From Opitutales bacterium (GTDB taxonomy: Bacteria > Verrucomicrobiota > Verrucomicrobiia > Opitutales > UBA953): a stretch of 27,441 nt of DNA. The position numbers are program-made. The stretch is from assembly GCA_040398005.1 (NCBI GenBank), contig JBBAUX010000005.1, positions 108,246 through 135,686 of the forward strand, written 5' to 3'. Positions 15,001-21,000 of the stretch are shown here, piece by piece (position 1 is the first letter of the stretch; each line of letters starts with the position of its first letter).

Positions 15001-18000
15001 TCGCGGCGAGTGGACATCGCGTCATCGGATTAGACTTACGTAATCATGGAATCTCTCCCTGGGATGATGATTGTAGTTACACCGCTATGGCTGAAGACGT
15101 TTACACTTTCTTGCAGTCCGAAAAATTAGATTCTGTTCATCTGGTGGGACACAGTATGGGCGGAAAAGTCGCGATGCGTTTGGCGTTCAGTTATCCTAAA
15201 CTCGTGAGTCGTCTCACCATCGTTGATATCGCACCTCGTACTTACTCGGATCGCATACGGGTAGAATTTACGGCGATGAACTCGATTGATTTAACCAAGA
15301 TTAAATCTCGTCGTGACGCGGAGAATCAACTGATGGATACGGTCACTGACTGGGGGATGCGTCAGTTCATTTTAACCAATCTTAATAGTGATGAAAATGG
15401 CGTGTGGAAGTGGACGGTTAATCGCGAAGCCCTCACGCAATCCCTTCAATCCATTCTCGATTTTTCGATTAATGATAACGAGACTTTCAACGGCCCCACG
15501 CGCTTTATTCGCGGAGGTAAGTCGAATTACATCACGGACGCAGATACTATTTTAATTAAGAAACACTTTCCGGCTGCGGATTGGGTGACGTTGCCTGAGA
15601 GCGGACACAATCCGCACTTCGATTCTCGGACTGGGTTTGTGGATGTGGTTCTTGAAACTGACTAAACAAAAAGACCTTCCGGGTGGAAGGTCTTTGTTTG
15701 GAAGCACTTTAGTGAGAATTACTTTGTGTTGGCTTTAATCCATTCAGCTTCACTGACATCGCCACTCTTGTCGGCGTCATAACGAACGAAACTCTTCTCG
15801 GTTTTGGCAGGATCTTTTTTGCGGACCGCTAAGAATTCTTCTTTGGTAACTTTGCCGTCTTTGTTTACGTCAGCTTTCTTGTAATCAGCAGAGATTTGTT
15901 CTGGGGTTTTAACTTCAGCAGGTACGGTTGTTGCAGGTGCGGTTGTTGTTCCACTGGCATTGACGCCACCAAACATGGTATCTTCGTCTTTACTCTTGGC
16001 TGTAGCGTCTGCGATTTTTACTTTCTTAGTTTTGCCAAAGACAACCGCATTAGGATTGGGTGCAGTGATGGCTGCAGGTAAGAATTTTGAAAGACGTTCA
16101 ATCACTGCTTTGTTTTCAGGCTTATTAGCTAAATTAACAGGCTCGGTCGGTGCATTTACCTCGTCGTATAATTCAGTATCATAAATCTTATTATCTTCGA
16201 TGCCGCGCCAGAGGATTAAGCGCCAGCGTTCGTCGCGGATACTGTAACCCATGACGTTACATTTGCCACCTTTGATGAAGCCATCTTTAACTGCTGTAGC
16301 TTCTTTGTTTGCTTTAGGATATTGGCTAATGGCTACTTCTTTAACCTTCACAGTCTGATTTTCTAAGACTGGGCGGAGTGATATGCCGTCCACATCAGGT
16401 TTAGGTAATCCGCAGAGATCAGCGAGGGTTGGATACACGTCCACAAATTCGACCAGGGAGTCGGACTTACCGTTCGCATTCTTCATATTGGGATAGCTAA
16501 CGATAAGGGGTACGCGAGTATCGGCTTCGAAGTTAGTATGTTTGCCCCACTCTTGGTGGTCGCCGAGTTTCCAGCCGTGATCGCCCCAGAGAACGATGAC
16601 AGTGCTATCAGCGAGGCCTTCTTTTTCTAAGGCATCAAGAACGATACCCAGATTAGCATCGGTGTAGCTGACGGCTGCGTAGTAACCATGACGCATGTCT
16701 TTGGTTAATTTTTCAGGCAGAGCAGTGAAGCTTTGTTTTTTCTCTTTAGGAGGAATGTTGGTGTAGGAGTGTAACTCACCGCTATCGCTATCGTTCGCAT
16801 AGAGCGGGGATCCTTCAGGGTATTTACTGCTGGTATCAGGTAGTTTATCGGCATCATACATATCCCAATATTTCTTAGGGGAAACGAAGGGGAGGTGAGG
16901 TTTGGAGAAACCAACTGCCAGGAAGAACGGGGAATCCTTTTTCTTTAATTCACCCAGAGTTTTTGCAGCGAGACGTGCAGTTTTTCCGTCAGTGTAAAAA
17001 TCATCGGGTACATCGCCGGCTTCGAATGCGGGACCTTTAATTTTTTCTGCACCGCTCTTTCGGGAGTTTTCAAGAGCTTGGCGATTTTCTGGCTTCGCAT
17101 AGATTTCAGCTTCAGGAGTTCCCCAGGGTACTGACCAACCCACAGCATCATCCTGACCACCGTGAAAAATTTTACCCATACCTTGAGAGAAGTATCCGTT
17201 CTTGATGAAGAACTGTCCGAGGGAGACCGCGTTGGGGAGGGCAGTACGGAAGTGTGTTTCTAAATCCCAAACGCGAGTGGCGTCCGGACGTTTACCCGTC
17301 ATGATGGATGCTCGTGATGGAGCACAAACGGCTTGTTGGCAGTAGGCGCGATTAAAAACCATGCCGCGTTTAGCGAGACGATCAAAGTTAGGGGTCTTGA
17401 TGGCAGTATTACCGTAACAACTTAATTCAGGACGAAGGTCATCAATGGCAATAAACAGCACATTCATTTTTTTCTCCTGAGCACAAAGCTGGGCGCTGAG
17501 TAGTCCGAGGGTTATTAAGGTAAGTAACTTTTTCATTATTAAGAGTATCGTTAGGTTAGGAAACACCTCCAAGGCTAACAAGTTCCAAAATCGTGAAATT
17601 GGCTTAAATAGAGCAAATTTTCGGAATCTTGCTATTTCGATTTAGGTAACCTACCGATGGAGCAACTGCATGTCGGAATCTCGCTTAAAGTTTAAATTAG
17701 AGGCCAAAGCCTCCGGCTCCAGAGCGCGAGCGGCGACATTCCATACCCTCCATAATGAGGTTAAAACTCCTCTGTTTATGCCCGTGGGCACGCAGGCGAC
17801 GGTTAAAGCACAAACCTTCGAAACATTACACGACTCGGGATCGCAAATTCTCTTAGCGAATACTTATCACTTATTACTGCGACCAGGTCCCGAGGTTTTT
17901 CAAAAGTTTGGTGGTATTCACTCCTTCATGAATTGGAGTAAATCGGTACTCACGGATTCGGGTGGCTACCAAATTTTTTCACTTCCGCATTCTCGTTCAA

Positions 18001-21000
18001 TCGGCGAAGACGGCGCGGAATTCAGAAGTTACGTGGATGGTAAAAAAATTCTGCTGAGTCCGGAAGTGAGTATCGCCACGCAAATGGCCATCGGCAGTGA
18101 TATTATGATGGTGCTGGATCAGTGCATTCCGTCGACCGCGGACAAGGCCACCGCAAAACGTGCTTTAGAAATTACCCAACGCTGGGCGGTGCGTAGTTTG
18201 AAAGCTCGCGGAGAATCTCTGCAGTCGATGTTCGGTATCGTACAAGGTGCGCTTTATCCCGAACTGCGAAAGCAAAGTGCGGATGGACTAACCCAATTAC
18301 CCTTCGATGGATTTGCGATTGGCGGTCTCGCCGTCGGCGAAGAAAAACAAGAACGCGAAGATACGTGTGAAATCGCCGCCGCACTTTTACCCGAAGATAA
18401 ACCACGCTATCTCATGGGCGTGGGAACGCCGCTCGATTTACTTGAGGCCGTGCATCGCGGGGTGGATATGTTTGACTGCATTATCCCCAATAAAGTCGCC
18501 CAATTTGGCACTGCTTTCACCTCCAAGGGCTTACTTCAATTACGTCGATCGGTTTACAAATTCTCGGAGGAGAAAATCGATGCCTCTTGTGCCTGTCCGG
18601 TCTGCCAAAAATATTCTCGTGGTTATTTACATCACCTAACCAAGACGCGTGAACCCTTAGGTTGGACGCTGCTCGGTCAGCACAACATCGCTTTTTATCA
18701 TCAGATGATGCGGGAGATTCGTCAGAGTATTTTAGAAGATAGATTTTTAGAGTACTACAATAGTCGTCGAACTATTCTTGCCGTTGAAGATGCGGAGAAT
18801 CCGGCCAGCCCTCCGAAGGTCGGCAAGGAACGTCGCCCACGCATACTCGGCGATTATACGGTGCATATCGCCCCCGCGGGCTTTGCGAGTATTAAGCAAG
18901 TATCATCGGGTGAAATCATGCATTCGCATACGCCTCCGATGGACGAAGCGAAATCACTTTACGTCGATCAAGCGGAGCTACTGAAGCACTTACGCTTACC
19001 TGAAGGAAAATCTGCACAGGATGTTTCTGAACTGATTATTTGGGATGTGGGACTCGGTGCAGCCACGAATGCGATGGCGGCGGTGCAGTGTTATGAGAAA
19101 CTCGCGAGTGAAGGTGAAGTGCGTCGAATGAAAATCATCAGCTTCGAAAATAATCTCGATGCGCTCCGTTTAGCCCTCACCCATAAATCTAAATTTGAGT
19201 ATCTTCGTCACAGTGCTCCCGATGCCATTCTAGCCCGTAAACATTGGGTATCTCGACAGTTCTCAGGCTTAAGCTGGGAATTACACGAAGGCGATTTTTG
19301 GGAAATGGCTCCAAAGGTTTCGGAAAAACCTGACATCATTTTCTACGATTTCTTTTCGCATAAGACCGATACGCATGGGTGGCATCCCGATGCGTTTAAA
19401 AAATTATTTGCGATGGTGAAATCAGATAAGTCGCTCGCTCTCTTTACCTACTCGGCTTCGACCGCAGTGCGGGCAAGTTTACTCGCGGCTGGTTTCAATG
19501 TGGCTGCAGGTGTGGCCACTGGCGTAAAAAGTGAAACCACCATTGCTTTAATCCATCCCGAGAAAGCGTTGAGCCGTTATGCTTTACTTGATCGTGAGTG
19601 GTTGAGTAAGTGGGAGCGGTCCAATGCGAAATTTCCTGCGATGCTTGCCGTGTCTGATCAGCCCAGTTTCGAGCAAGCAATTCGGAGTCATTCGCAGTTT
19701 AAATCGTAAGCTCGAGTTGTCCGCACCTATAGTGTTAGGAAACTTGCTCTTAGGTTTAAATGACTTTGTTTAGTCCTATGGCTAACACAGGTATTCGTCG
19801 ATCATCCGAGCGTGGTTTCATGGACTACGGTGCCGTGCAATCAAAACTCAGTTTTAGTTTTGGAGATTATTATGATCTCAAGCACATGGGATTTCGTACG
19901 CTGCGCGTGATTAATCAGGACGTCGTTGCAGCCGGTGCGGGCTTTCCAACGCATGGACACAAGGACATGGAAATTTTTAGTTATGTTTTAGAGGGGACCA
20001 TTGCGCATCGAGATAGTTTGGGGAATAATGCTGAATTAAAACCTGGGCAAATTCAAGTGATGAGTGCCGGTTCGGGGGTGAAGCATAGTGAGTTTAACCC
20101 TTCAAAATCAGAGGTCTTACGTTTCATTCAAGTTTGGATCATGCCTAAGGCGAATGGTTTAGCGCCGAGGTATTCCGAGTGGAAGCCGTCCGCCGAAATG
20201 CAGAGCGCGGCGAAGGTTTTAATTATTTCGGAAGATGGACGTGAGCAGTCTGCCAAAGTTTATCAGGATGTTTCGGTGTATCGATTGAAGTTGAGTGCGA
20301 AAGAAAAAATCGAACATGTATTGAAGCAGGGCAGAGGACTTTGGTTGCAGGTGATTTCTGGTACCGTGAATGTTGGACAAGATTCCTTACAAGCGGGCGA
20401 TGCATGGAGCACTGAGCAAGGTGGCAAATGGCAGTTTGAAGCCCTAGATGATTCGGTCGAAGCGCTACTTTTTGATTTAGCCTAAATTAATTTTAATCTT
20501 CCTCTCTCGTTTTTAGACACTAACCTTAGCGATGTATGAAAACCCTATCCTCCATTGTCGCTACCCTACTTGGTTTGATGTTCGTGGTCTTTGGCCTGAA
20601 CTTCTTCCTTCAATTCATTGCGATTCCATCGCCGGCAGAGGGCACGCCCGCGGCAGCGTTTCTCGGTGCGATGATTGGCAGTGGCTATTTCAAGTTGGTA
20701 AAAGTTTTAGAAATTCTCGGGGGTGTTCTGCTTTTGTTACCACGTATACGTAATTGGGGCTTGGTGATTATCGGTGCGATTGTGGTGAACATTGCTAGTT
20801 TTCATTTATTCTTCTTCGGTGGCATCAAGGATCCGATTGTGATCTTCGCGATCGCTGCGGTACTCTTTCTTGCCTATGTTGGCCGTCGCGGTTTCTGCTG
20901 TCTGGCCTGTTGTGGTTCCGGTTGCTGCGCTAAGGACGGGGACAGCTGCTGCTCGACCTCGAGTGGTTCCTCTTCCTGCTGCTCCAGCGATAAGAAGTAA

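What a model noticed while it worked through the whole genome (the two positions that open the first line are those of the whole stretch)
17670..19709. tRNA-guanine transglycosylase fused to an MnmC2-like aminomethyl methyltransferase
g00859 (679 aa) joins a complete bacterial Tgt (preQ1-type pocket, zinc site, catalytic Asps) to a 300-residue SAM methyltransferase whose nearest solved relative is Aquifex MnmC2, which N-methylates the aminomethyl group of nm5s2U; the genome separately has a stand-alone Tgt (g00454) and MnmM, the other nm5s2U methylase. Boldest reading: the fused enzyme inserts preQ1 (7-aminomethyl-7-deazaguanine) into tRNA and methylates its aminomethyl group, giving N-methyl-preQ1, a base so far known only in phage DNA (made there by the unrelated DpdM), as a new tRNA modification of Verrucomicrobiota. 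New would be a branch of the queuosine pathway and its enzyme.
Evidence so far: Pfam TGT 470 bits (18-366) + Methyltransf_30 47 bits (530-626); NCBIfam Tgt equivalog 443 bits covering 52% of the protein. Motifs DQC at 150, GLAVGE at 219, CxCxxC at 307, DSGG at 96, MFDC at 267. C-terminal 300 aa against PDB sequences: best 3vyw MnmC2 E 8e-5, then 2qy6 YfcK, 3pvc MnmC. AF2: residues 390-679 pLDDT 85-96. Search with residues 380-679: 1828 proteins E<=1e-3; all of the best 120 carry PF05430+PF01702, 50-97% identical over that part, named only 'Tgt' (Verrucomicrobiota, Opitutales, Chthoniobacterales). 11-row alignment: W458, D459, G461, L462, G463, A464 invariant. MnmM g01143 185 bits (cut 135); QueA, QueG, QueC/D/E/F present. 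MnmE missing here but in 5 of 8 genus relatives. [...]
(Added by a program. Inside this text positions count along the whole contig: contig position 108,246 is position 1 of the stretch shown here. "Call 12" and the like, gene names such as g00115 and contig names such as C1 are that model's own, and its searches are not shown. The text may have been shortened before it was handed on; [...] marks where a part breaks off. The agent that wrote the report below was given it as the finding of a first reader that could run no searches.)

Follow-up and report, generated by a model that had tools for sequence, protein, structure and literature searches.

The report
Second Tgt fused to MnmC2-like methyltransferase
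One gene joins an extra, fully intact copy of the enzyme that swaps the queuosine precursor base into tRNA to a methyltransferase derived from the one that finishes a different wobble-base modification; the fusion is real, common in Verrucomicrobia and already listed in print, but what the methyltransferase half acts on is untested and could be a tRNA base not yet described.

Summary
ORF 17670-19709 (+, 679 aa) is a complete bacterial Tgt (443 bits, cut-off 307) joined to an MnmC2-fold SAM methyltransferase. That half scores 62-65 bits against a cut-off of 136. Its model best matches Aquifex MnmC2 (3VYW).

The Tgt half is a distinct, slowly evolving paralogue (Tgt2). 60 of 63 fusion genomes tested also keep an ordinary Tgt. 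In 177 fused proteins every Tgt catalytic, preQ1-pocket and zinc residue is invariant, except V233 (176 of 177). The methyltransferase SAM motifs and catalytic Asp of DXF are also invariant, while canonical MnmC2 residues (the Pro of DXFXP, the NP pair) are lost.

This fits preQ1 insertion followed by N-methylation, but does not prove it.
- QueA is always present, and MnmE/MnmG almost always.
- The "missing MnmE/G" here is a contig break.
- One genome has this methyltransferase type without Tgt2.
- Some fused forms keep canonical motifs.
- The domain arrangement is not confidently modelled (pTM 0.54).

The fusion is listed in one sentence of preprint 10.1101/2023.12.21.572861. This scan found it before on six other genomes.

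Odds:
- Amine methylation of the inserted 7-deazaguanine: about 0.4.
- Ordinary nm5s2U methylase: about 0.3.
- Another target: about 0.15.

The parts
17670..19709 (+). whole fused gene (679 codons plus stop), Tgt2-MnmC2-like
   Evidence: ORF list and translation. Pfam TGT + Methyltransf_30. 71 of 80 related loci carry the same full-length fusion.
17670..18785 (+). Tgt2 domain (residues 1-372): bacterial preQ1-type tRNA-guanine(34) transglycosylase paralogue
   Evidence: TIGR00430 443 bits over cut-off. 366.7 bits to Z. mobilis TGT, against 368.6 for the genome's other Tgt. 43% identical to that other Tgt. Forms its own clade with SH-aLRT 100.
17955..17957 (+). Asp96 (Z. mobilis Asp102), catalytic
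   Evidence: Mapped through the PDB alignment. D in 177 of 177 fused proteins.
18117..18125 (+). Asp150-Gln151-Cys152 (Zm Asp156, Glu157, Cys158): base pocket. Gln in place of the Glu of ordinary Tgt.
   Evidence: D and C invariant. Q in 15 of 16 Tgt2 against E in 35 of 36 other Tgt.
18324..18341 (+). Gly219-Leu-Ala-Val-Gly-Glu224 (Zm 230-235): preQ1-type substrate loop
   Evidence: G, L, A and E in 177 of 177, V in 176 of 177. Low pLDDT at 220-223 in the model.
18474..18476 (+). Asp269 (Zm Asp280), nucleophile
   Evidence: D in 177 of 177.
18486..18509 (+). Pro273-Gly280 (Zm 284-291): the two Arg of ordinary Tgt (Zm 286, 289) are replaced (Lys275, Gln278 here)
   Evidence: Ordinary Tgt: R in 35 of 36 and 36 of 36. 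Tgt2: Q/K/A and Q/K/E. Among 177 fused proteins, 0 and 1 Arg.
18588..18605 (+). Cys307-x-Cys309-x-x-Cys312 zinc motif (fourth ligand His338)
   Evidence: All four ligands in 177 of 177. 13 of 36 ordinary Tgt of the class lack this motif.
18771..18851 (+). linker (about residues 368-394), Pro/Lys-rich
   Evidence: pLDDT under 50 at 382-387. Poorly conserved columns in alignment A2.
18852..19706 (+). MnmC2-like class I SAM-dependent amine methyltransferase domain (residues 395-679), with a C-terminal extension shared with stand-alone verrucomicrobial homologues
   Evidence: NF033855 65 bits, under its cut-off of 136. Model pLDDT 90.2. Best fold matches 3vyw E 7.9e-16, then 2qy6, 3awi, 3ps9, 3sgl, 3pvc.
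19041..19058 (+). motif I Trp458-Asp-Val-Gly-Leu-Gly463 (SAM binding)
   Evidence: W, D, G, G in 177 of 177. Aligned to the GxGxG loop of 3vyw.
19344..19382 (+). motif IV Tyr559-Asp560-Phe-Phe-Ser-His-Lys-Thr-Asp-Thr-His-Gly-Trp571: catalytic DXF kept; canonical Pro and Asn-Pro lost
   Evidence: D560, S563 and W571 in 177 of 177; position 564 is never Pro in the counts listed. Aquifex reads DAFSPYKNPELW. Roles of D193, N200 and E202 from PMC3527978. E. coli Pro-182 is conserved in over 98% (PMC3648344).

Best explanation
The gene encodes a bifunctional tRNA wobble-base enzyme.

Inferred from invariant residues:
- The N-terminal half (Tgt2) is a catalytically competent bacterial tRNA-guanine transglycosylase. 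It exchanges G34 of GUN-anticodon tRNAs for preQ1 (7-aminomethyl-7-deazaguanine), which the cell can make (QueF present).
- The C-terminal half descends from the stand-alone MnmC2-like methyltransferases of the same class and keeps SAM binding and the catalytic Asp of the DXF motif.

Inferred, not shown: this half N-methylates the exocyclic aminomethyl nitrogen of the 7-deazaguanine that Tgt2 has just inserted. That is the same chemistry MnmC2 performs on the 5-aminomethyl group of nm5s2U34.

The product would be N-methyl-preQ1 or a methylated later queuosine form.

The tether would let methylation compete with QueA on the tRNAs that Tgt2 handles. The ordinary Tgt, QueA and the rest of the pathway would go on making queuosine.
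For: 1. Tgt2 is an added paralogue, not the housekeeping copy.
- All 13 fusion genomes of a 221-genome class sample have two Tgt matches. So do 47 of 50 further fusion genomes.
- No genome of the sample without a Tgt2 has the fusion.
- Tgt2 forms its own clade (SH-aLRT 100, stem 1.27+0.47), while ordinary Tgt follows taxonomy.
- Tgt2 evolves more slowly than Tgt1 in the same genomes: median identity 72.9% against 61.8%, and more conserved in 105 of 120 pairs.

2. Both halves look active. In 177 full-length fused proteins the following are invariant:
- D102, D156, C158, Q203, G229-A232, E235, M260 and D280 (Z. mobilis numbering) and the four zinc ligands; V233 is kept in 176 of 177.
- Motif I WDxGxG, the motif II Glu, D560, S563 and W571.

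3. The methyltransferase departs from canonical MnmC2 at positions that canonical forms keep.
- Pro of DXFXP (E. coli Pro-182, conserved in over 98%; PMC3648344).
- Asn-Pro (Aquifex N200 binds the SAM adenine; PMC3527978).
- G422->P and G612->A.
- 22 stand-alone homologues from the same class keep D-x-[FYH]-S; 21 of them keep the Pro and most the NP pair.

4. The fused-type clade has a long stem (1.83, SH-aLRT 98). Among the 134 rows of the tree, nearly all fused forms fall in this one clade, and the canonical stand-alone clades hold only one fused row.

5. Other nm5s2U methylases co-occur with an intact fusion.
- MnmM co-occurs in G000 and in G192.
- A canonical-type stand-alone homologue co-occurs in G266.
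- MnmM and the canonical stand-alone form never co-occur (0 of 33).

6. Chemistry and supply.
- The MnmC2 pocket is described as a narrow channel for an aminomethyl group (PMC3527978).
- QueF is present.
- Bacterial TGT accepts an N-alkylated preQ1 analogue in vivo (abstract of PMC9561289 in the listing), so either order of steps is possible.
Against: - There are no nucleoside data. No paper found reports a methylated preQ1 in tRNA.
- QueA is present in all 23 fusion-related genomes tested, so preQ1-tRNA is normally consumed.
- MnmG is in 12 of 13 and in 49 of 50 fusion genomes, and MnmE in 17 of 18. The nm5s2U substrate of an ordinary MnmC2 is therefore available almost everywhere.
- In 10 of the 13 fusion genomes of the class sample the fused domain is the only candidate nm5s2U methylase.
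- Genome G406 has a fused-type methyltransferase as a separate gene, only one Tgt (47% identical to Tgt2) and no other PF05430. The methyltransferase therefore does not need Tgt2.
- Genomes G389 and G399 keep Tgt2 with the methyltransferase cut off before motif IV. Tgt2 therefore has a use without it.
- In three genomes only the fused Tgt was found, and QueA is present there. Their completeness is unknown.
- Some fused proteins keep canonical-like motif IV: P0366 DPFSPKANPSMW, P0306, P0299.
- The base pocket of Tgt2 is unchanged from ordinary Tgt.
- pTM of 0.54 gives no confident placement of the two active sites.
- The fused gene has no conserved neighbours: the best neighbour cluster is in 10 of 80 loci. 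No riboswitch was found.
Confidence: 0.4

Rival explanations
1. Plain fusion of two independent wobble enzymes. The C-domain is the organism's ordinary nm5(s2)U34 -> mnm5(s2)U34 methyltransferase (MnmC2 function) acting on Lys/Glu/Gln-type tRNAs. The Tgt half makes preQ1-tRNA for queuosine. The two share a polypeptide without sharing a substrate.
For: - MnmC2 fold with the catalytic DXF kept.
- MnmE/MnmG accompany the fusion almost always.
- 10 of 13 fusion genomes in the class sample have no MnmM and no other MnmC2-like gene.
- Where MnmM is present in f14 (G389, G399) the fused methyltransferase is truncated.
- G406 has the methyltransferase alone, with a single ordinary Tgt.
- Some fused forms keep the canonical motif.
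- QueA is always present.
Against: - It does not explain why an extra Tgt is kept beside the ordinary one in 60 of 63 genomes, or why that extra copy is the more conserved of the two.
- It does not explain why Tgt fusions are confined to one methyltransferase clade.
- The intact fusion co-occurs with MnmM in G000 and G192 and with a canonical-type homologue in G266.
- Residues conserved in over 98% of MnmC are lost.
- The score is under half the curated MnmC2 cut-off. The stand-alone verrucomicrobial forms also score only 70-81 bits.
Confidence: 0.3
2. The methyltransferase uses the Tgt2-bound, splayed-out anticodon loop to methylate another amine of the same RNA, for example an exocyclic amine at position 37 or a neighbour. 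Alternatively, Tgt2 has shifted to a different RNA substrate, and the pair writes a mark elsewhere than position 34 of the four GUN tRNAs.
For: - Tgt2 has replaced the two Arg that ordinary Tgt keeps at Z. mobilis positions 286 and 289. Their role in RNA binding is recalled from memory and was not confirmed by any search.
- The E. coli TGT-tRNA cryo-EM paper describes anticodon-loop bases, A37 among them, flipped out on the enzyme (PMC13416341, passages).
- Tgt1 shows no sign of change in fusion genomes: it clusters with the single Tgt of relatives. The fusion therefore adds something rather than splitting the old job.
- DXF/DPF-type motifs also serve exocyclic-amine methylation in Trm1 (PMC3527978).
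Against: - Descent from an aminomethyl-specific enzyme with a narrow pocket.
- No candidate alternative RNA was found.
- The four GUN tRNAs of the genome have ordinary U33-G34-U35 loops.
- The Tgt2 base pocket is canonical.
Confidence: 0.15
3. The C-domain no longer methylates anything. It serves as an RNA-binding or dimer-organising appendage of Tgt2.
For: - The SAM-adenine contacts N200 and E202 of Aquifex MnmC2 are not kept.
- G389 and G399 retain only the N-terminal two thirds of the domain.
Against: - Motif I, the motif II Glu, the motif III Asp (161 of 177), and D560, S563 and W571 are invariant or nearly so across 177 proteins.
- The model is confident throughout the domain.
Confidence: 0.05

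Closest known systems
TGT-MnmC2 fusion proteins listed in the preprint 'Alternate routes to mnm5s2U synthesis in Gram-positive bacteria' (bioRxiv 10.1101/2023.12.21.572861)
   Same: Same architecture: COG4121/MnmC2 domain fused to queuine tRNA-ribosyltransferase (COG0343, PF01702). It is named as one of four further MnmC2 fusion types (passages read).
   Different: The passages seen give one sentence and no function, distribution or paralogue analysis. The preprint's supplementary tables (S3, Figure S1) could not be opened and may list organisms.
Bacterial tRNA-guanine(34) transglycosylase Tgt (Z. mobilis TGT structures such as 1enu/1p0d; TIGR00430)
   Same: Over the curated cut-off. All catalytic, preQ1-pocket and zinc residues are present. 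366.7 bits to the Z. mobilis chain.
   Different: - A second paralogue, 43% identical to the genome's other Tgt.
- Gln for Glu157, and no Arg at 286/289.
- Carries a 300-residue C-terminal methyltransferase.
MnmC2 (Aquifex aeolicus DUF752, PDB 3VYW; N-terminal domain of E. coli/Y. pestis MnmC, 2QY6, 3AWI, 3PS9, 3SGL, 3PVC)
   Same: Best fold matches (E 7.9e-16 to 2e-9). Motif I, the motif II Glu and the DXF motif with the catalytic Asp are kept.
   Different: - 62-65 bits against a cut-off of 136.
- The Pro of DXFXP and the Asn-Pro that follows are lost.
- G422->P and G612->A.
- Fused to Tgt instead of the MnmC1 oxidase.
DpdM, the phage dPreQ1 methyltransferase that makes mdPreQ1 in DNA (PMC10516641)
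   Same: The proposed reaction, methylation of the aminomethyl nitrogen of preQ1, is the same chemistry.
   Different: DpdM is a DUF3109 metal-binding protein with a different fold and acts on DNA (passages). No DUF3109 match in this protein.
MnmM (YtqB family, NF053511, PF06962)
   Same: The other known nm5s2U methyltransferase. The window's genome encodes one (185 bits, cut-off 135).
   Different: Unrelated in family, and a separate gene on contig C9. Its presence beside the fusion in G000 and G192 is an argument against simple redundancy.

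Membership tests
Bacterial Tgt (TIGR00430 equivalog) | Score over the curated cut-off across the whole model | tested here: met
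   443.3 bits against 306.75, model positions 4-360 of 368.
Bacterial Tgt (TIGR00430 equivalog) | Catalytic Asp pair (Zm D102, D280) and base-recognition residues D156, Q203, G229/G230, L231-A232, E235, M260 | tested here: met
   All present here and invariant in 177 of 177 fused proteins.
Bacterial Tgt (TIGR00430 equivalog) | preQ1-type rather than queuine-type pocket (Cys158, Val233) | tested here: met
   C in 177 of 177 and V in 176 of 177. Same in ordinary Tgt of the class. That these two residues set preQ1 against queuine specificity is recalled knowledge.
Bacterial Tgt (TIGR00430 equivalog) | Structural zinc site CxCxxC...H | tested here: met
   C307, C309, C312 and H338 invariant.
Bacterial Tgt (TIGR00430 equivalog) | G34-to-preQ1 exchange on tRNA Asp/Asn/His/Tyr | not testable with these tools
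   The four tRNA genes with U33-G34-U35 loops exist in the genome. Activity needs an assay.
MnmC2 (NF033855; Aquifex DUF752 type) | Score over the curated cut-off | tested here: not met
   62.4 bits (whole protein) and 65.1 bits (domain alone) against 136.
MnmC2 (NF033855; Aquifex DUF752 type) | MnmC2 fold | tested here: met
   Model pLDDT 90.2. The top nine Foldseek matches are all MnmC2/MnmC entries; 3vyw_B E 7.9e-16, TM 0.65.
MnmC2 (NF033855; Aquifex DUF752 type) | DXF signature with the essential Asp (E. coli D178, Aquifex D193) | tested here: met
   D560-F-F562. D in 177 of 177; F/Y/W at 562 in 177 of 177. Definition from PMC3527978.
MnmC2 (NF033855; Aquifex DUF752 type) | Pro of DXFXP (E. 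coli Pro-182, conserved in over 98% of 140 MnmC) and the following Asn-Pro (Aquifex N200) | tested here: not met
   Position 564 is S/H/G/T/Q/C. Position 567 is D/S/H/N/C/A (N in 17 of 177). Kept in most of 22 stand-alone class homologues. Conservation figures from PMC3648344.
MnmC2 (NF033855; Aquifex DUF752 type) | Genome makes the nm5(s2)U substrate (MnmE and MnmG present) | tested here: inconclusive
   Not found in G000, but the syntenic block ends at a contig end. Present in nearly all other fusion genomes.
MnmC2 (NF033855; Aquifex DUF752 type) | Methylates nm5s2U34-tRNA | not testable with these tools
   Needs complementation or an in vitro assay.
DpdM (DUF3109 preQ1 methyltransferase of phages) | DUF3109 domain with the CxxxCxxCC metal motif | tested here: not met
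   No DUF3109 hit among the Pfam matches. The family definition is from PMC10516641.

The most novel reading that the evidence does not exclude
Verrucomicrobia carry a branch of the queuosine pathway. In it, a dedicated Tgt paralogue inserts preQ1 and its tethered MnmC2-derived domain methylates the aminomethyl nitrogen. This gives N-methyl-preQ1, or an N-methylated queuosine, at the tRNA wobble position. So far that base is known only in phage DNA, where an unrelated enzyme makes it.
Probability: 0.4. Interest if true: 0.8.

Novelty: new variant of a known kind. Interest (0 to 1): 0.6.

Why it matters
If the methyltransferase acts on the inserted 7-deazaguanine, three things would follow.
- It would add a new natural tRNA nucleoside and a new branch point to the queuosine pathway.
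- It would be a second, independent enzyme solution for preQ1 N-methylation, beside phage DpdM.
- It would be a clear case of an aminomethyl-uridine enzyme retooled for an aminomethyl-deazapurine.

The question is directly testable: one heterologous expression in E. coli lacking queA plus nucleoside mass spectrometry.

If the domain is instead an ordinary MnmC2, two things still need explaining. One is why a whole class of bacteria keeps two intact Tgt enzymes, with the fused one the more conserved. The other is that annotation of these proteins simply as 'Tgt' hides half of their function.

Tried and rejected
- **MnmE/MnmG absence as evidence against an nm5s2U role: rejected.** The G192 mnmE neighbourhood is syntenic with G000 contig C3 up to base 163029 of 163193, where the contig ends.
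- **Conserved gene neighbourhood: none.** Among 80 related loci the commonest neighbour cluster is in 10. The stand-alone homologues sit beside varied housekeeping genes, with a Tgt next door in only 1 of 20. That Tgt is of the ordinary type.
- **preQ1 riboswitch or other Rfam family near the gene: none.** No match at gathering score in the window and 11 fused loci.
- **Promoter and terminator scan of 17300-20600: nothing above shuffles**.
- **Role of Z. mobilis Arg286/Arg289.** Two literature searches and the E. coli TGT cryo-EM paper did not give it. It stays a recollection.
- **Motif IV divergence as a mark of all fused forms: rejected.** Cluster representatives include fused proteins with canonical-like motifs.
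- **Remnant domain of G389/G399.** It is 62% identical between the two against 89% for their Tgt part. The intact pair G000/G192 shows the same ratio (61% against 86%), so this says nothing about relaxed selection.
- **Complex prediction (Tgt2 domain with methyltransferase domain).** The queue was full each time, so it never ran and there is no result.
- **Published version of the preprint by DOI: not held**.
- **Search of our earlier findings by sequence: nothing**. The search by words found six earlier notes.

Full report
**What is there**

The window holds one uninterrupted ORF at 17670..19709 on the + strand, 679 codons from an ATG.

- Its first 372 residues are a bacterial tRNA-guanine(34) transglycosylase. 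Pfam TGT scores 470.1 bits. NCBIfam equivalog TIGR00430 scores 443.3 bits against a cut-off of 306.75.
- After a Pro/Lys-rich linker comes a 285-residue class I methyltransferase. It hits Pfam Methyltransf_30 (47.5 bits). It hits the NCBIfam MnmC2 domain model at 62-65 bits, under half its cut-off of 136.
- By sequence its nearest solved relative is Aquifex MnmC2 (3vyw, E 8.1e-5).
- An AF2 model of the domain (pLDDT 90.2, pTM 0.89) has MnmC2 or MnmC entries as its nine best Foldseek matches. The best is 3vyw_B, E 7.9e-16, TM 0.65. Spermidine synthases follow at E about 1e-7.
- The full-length model has mean pLDDT 84.0 but pTM only 0.54. The low segments lie in the Tgt active-site loops. The relative placement of the two domains is therefore not predicted with confidence.

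One exception: 3pvc appears by fold, not by sequence.

**The Tgt half is a separate paralogue**

The genome has another Tgt on contig C2 (468 bits), 43% identical to the fused one. Both are equally close to Z. mobilis TGT (366.7 and 368.6 bits).

In a sample of 221 genomes of the same class:
- 13 carry the fusion, and all 13 have two Tgt matches at E<=1e-60.
- Three other genomes have two Tgt. G389 and G399 carry Tgt2 with a truncated methyltransferase. G259 has two ordinary-type copies.

Of 50 further fusion genomes reached through named records, 47 have at least two Tgt. In G409, G417 and G437 only the fused one was found; their completeness is unknown.

A quick IQ-TREE of 52 Tgt sequences puts the 16 fused or truncated copies in one clade (SH-aLRT 100, stem 1.27+0.47). 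The ordinary copies follow taxonomy and sit next to the single Tgt of relatives that lack the fusion. I left no rows out. The careful search did not finish, so this is the quick tree.

Across the 16 genomes that have both, Tgt2 is the more conserved. Median pairwise identity is 72.9% against 61.8%, and Tgt2 is higher in 105 of 120 pairs.

**Both active sites are kept**

In 177 full-length fused proteins the following are invariant. The set comprises database proteins and ORFs from related loci, so some redundancy is possible. Numbering is Z. mobilis.
- Tgt residues D102, D156, C158, Q203, G229, G230, L231, A232, E235, M260, D280 and the four zinc ligands. V233 is kept in 176 of 177.
- In the methyltransferase: W458, D459, G461 and G463 (motif I), E493 (motif II), D560, S563 and W571.

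Fixed differences of Tgt2 from ordinary Tgt of the class include Gln for Glu157, Asp for Gln at 267, and loss of both Arg at 286 and 289. That those two Arg touch the RNA is my recollection; two searches and one paper did not confirm it. The base pocket itself does not differ. Cys158 and Val233 are the same in both paralogues.

**Where the methyltransferase comes from and how it differs**

The same class holds stand-alone homologues of about 290-310 aa, 31-39% identical, in 34 of the 221 genomes. They share clade-specific residues and a C-terminal extension with the fused domain. MnmC N-domains from other classes of the phylum lack these features.

Trees place the groups as follows: MnmC N-domains, then verrucomicrobial stand-alone forms, then a fused-type clade on a long stem (1.83, SH-aLRT 98). 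The tool flagged that long branches meet in this tree.

Motif IV comparison:
- The stand-alone forms keep the canonical motif IV, as in Aquifex DAFSPYKNPELW.
- In the fused type of this window's lineage the catalytic DXF and the Ser and Trp stay. The Pro of DXFXP and the Asn-Pro are gone.
- The Aquifex paper assigns D193 as catalytic base and N200 and E202 as contacts of the SAM adenine. It describes a narrow pocket for the aminomethyl arm (PMC3527978, passages).
- The MnmC structure paper lists Pro-182 among 18 residues conserved in over 98% of 140 MnmC (PMC3648344, passages).
- Two more canonical invariants change in all 33 fused-type rows: G422 to P and G612 to A.

**What weakens a simple story**

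A profile search of 1.84 billion cluster representatives found 4409 proteins at E<=1e-3 and 477 at E<=1e-30. Of the best 150, 14 are full fusions, 28 are fragments that still carry the end of a Tgt, and 108 are methyltransferase only.

In a FastTree of 134 rows, nearly all fused rows lie in one clade with motif DPFSxK. They are interleaved there with methyltransferase-only rows. The canonical stand-alone clades hold a single fused row, P0366. I dropped representatives that cover less than most of the domain.

Several fused representatives keep a canonical-like motif IV: P0366 DPFSPKANPSMW, P0306 and P0299. Their Tgt plus Methyltransf_30 architecture is confirmed. The motif change is therefore a feature of a subclade, not of the fusion as such.

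One related locus (L132, genome G406) has a fused-type methyltransferase as a gene of its own, between a GH75-like gene and a metallo-beta-lactamase gene. That genome has one Tgt of the ordinary type, no second PF05430, no MnmM, and QueA.

Conversely, G389 and G399 keep a highly conserved Tgt2 whose methyltransferase ends just before motif IV. The two halves can therefore each persist without the other.

**Pathway context**

- QueA is present in 18 of 18 and 5 of 5 genomes tested. QueF is present in this genome.
- MnmG is in 201 of 221 class genomes, in 12 of the 13 with the fusion, and in 49 of 50 further fusion genomes. MnmE is in 17 of 18.
- This genome lacks both MnmE and MnmG. In the same-genus genome G192, however, mnmE and the 629-aa ORF after it lie directly beyond genes whose counterparts are the last genes of G000 contig C3. 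The assembly also lacks tRNA-Glu and tRNA-Gly genes. The absence is an assembly break and not evidence.
- MnmM (PF06962) is in 43 of 221 genomes. It never co-occurs with the canonical stand-alone methyltransferase (0 of 33).
- MnmM does co-occur with the intact fusion in G000 and G192, and with the truncated fusion in G389 and G399.
- G266 has both a canonical-type stand-alone form and the fusion.

These genomes are related, so the counts are not independent.

**Reading**

The data fit best an enzyme whose two activities serve one substrate. A dedicated, strongly conserved, catalytically intact Tgt paralogue is tied to an amine methyltransferase. That methyltransferase descends from an aminomethyl-specific enzyme and has changed around its active site. 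The aminomethyl group of preQ1 at position 34 is the obvious shared substrate.

Bacterial TGT tolerates an N-alkylated preQ1 analogue in vivo (abstract of PMC9561289 in the listing). Methylation could therefore come before or after insertion.

I put this at about 0.4. The ordinary reading is an MnmC2 that happens to be tethered to a Tgt. It explains the near-universal presence of MnmE/MnmG and QueA, the stand-alone case and the canonical-motif fusions with less effort. It leaves the retained second Tgt unexplained. I put it at about 0.3. Another amine of the Tgt2-bound RNA, or another RNA, gets about 0.15. A dead domain gets about 0.05.

**Known or new**

The architecture is in print. A preprint on mnm5s2U routes names fusions of MnmC2 with TGT (COG0343, PF01702) among four further fusion types, without a function in the passages I read.

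A search for five spellings of methylated preQ1 found only the phage DNA paper. That paper shows DpdM to be an unrelated DUF3109 protein. A search for the family names found nothing more on the fusion.

This scan has met the same fusion on six other genomes, with similar readings.
- the strict pairing with an ordinary Tgt;
- the higher conservation of Tgt2;
- the invariance of both sites;
- the mapping of what changed in the methyltransferase;
- the counter-examples (stand-alone, truncated and canonical-motif forms);
- the removal of the MnmE argument.

Noticed in passing
L001:1477-2619 (G000 contig C2, the genome's other Tgt) and 12 further loci, e.g. L055, L054, L072-L074, L056, L058, L059, L063, L065, L080, L082: 13 of 36 ordinary Tgt of this class lack the canonical zinc motif CxCxxC. 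They read DNYTC, NNYTT, VNYAT, EDTH-PLC and the like. Six of these are the only Tgt of their genome, one of which (G195) also has QueA. All 16 fused Tgt2 keep the motif. A zinc-less yet presumably active bacterial Tgt is not something I know from the literature.
   Followed up: partly
L028:3847-5568 (-) in G389 and the matching ORF of L029 in G399: Tgt2 with the methyltransferase truncated just before motif IV (573-575 aa), in two species of one genus. Both species also have MnmM. The Tgt part is 88.8% identical between them and the remnant 62.4%.
   Followed up: partly
L132:5746-6888 (+), genome G406: A fused-type methyltransferase as a separate gene between a GH75-like gene and a metallo-beta-lactamase gene. 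The genome has only one, ordinary-type Tgt.
   Followed up: yes
L016:4753-8334 (G259): An ordinary-type second Tgt, a canonical-type stand-alone MnmC2-like gene (divergent orientation) and a MiaB-like radical SAM gene lie side by side. This is the only Tgt adjacency among 20 stand-alone loci.
   Followed up: partly
window 21352-27441 (+), runs off the window: An open frame of at least 2030 aa with PATR (passenger-associated transport) repeats, in a stretch of lower G+C (0.41-0.43 against about 0.48). It looks like a giant autotransporter-like surface protein.
   Followed up: no
window 15719-17581 (-): A sulfatase (Pfam Sulfatase 154 bits) with a C-terminal EF-hand/dockerin-like calcium-binding tail. 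It is divergently placed 88 bases upstream of the fused gene.
   Followed up: no
protein P0354 (504 aa, cluster representative): A further architecture of this methyltransferase family: an N-terminal AMIN domain followed by Methyltransf_30.
   Followed up: no
G000 whole assembly: Aragorn finds 35 tRNA genes. None is for Glu or Gly, and mnmE/mnmG fall at a contig end. The 93.9% completeness figure hides gaps that matter for tRNA-modification inferences.
   Followed up: yes
loci L145, L152, L156, L161, L103: Some fusion-bearing records are titled Acidobacteriota, Bacteriovoracaceae, Thermoanaerobaculia, Vicinamibacteria or Akkermansia muciniphila. Their fused proteins are 47-69% identical to the window's. 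Whether this is mis-binning, mislabelling or real transfer was not examined.
   Followed up: no
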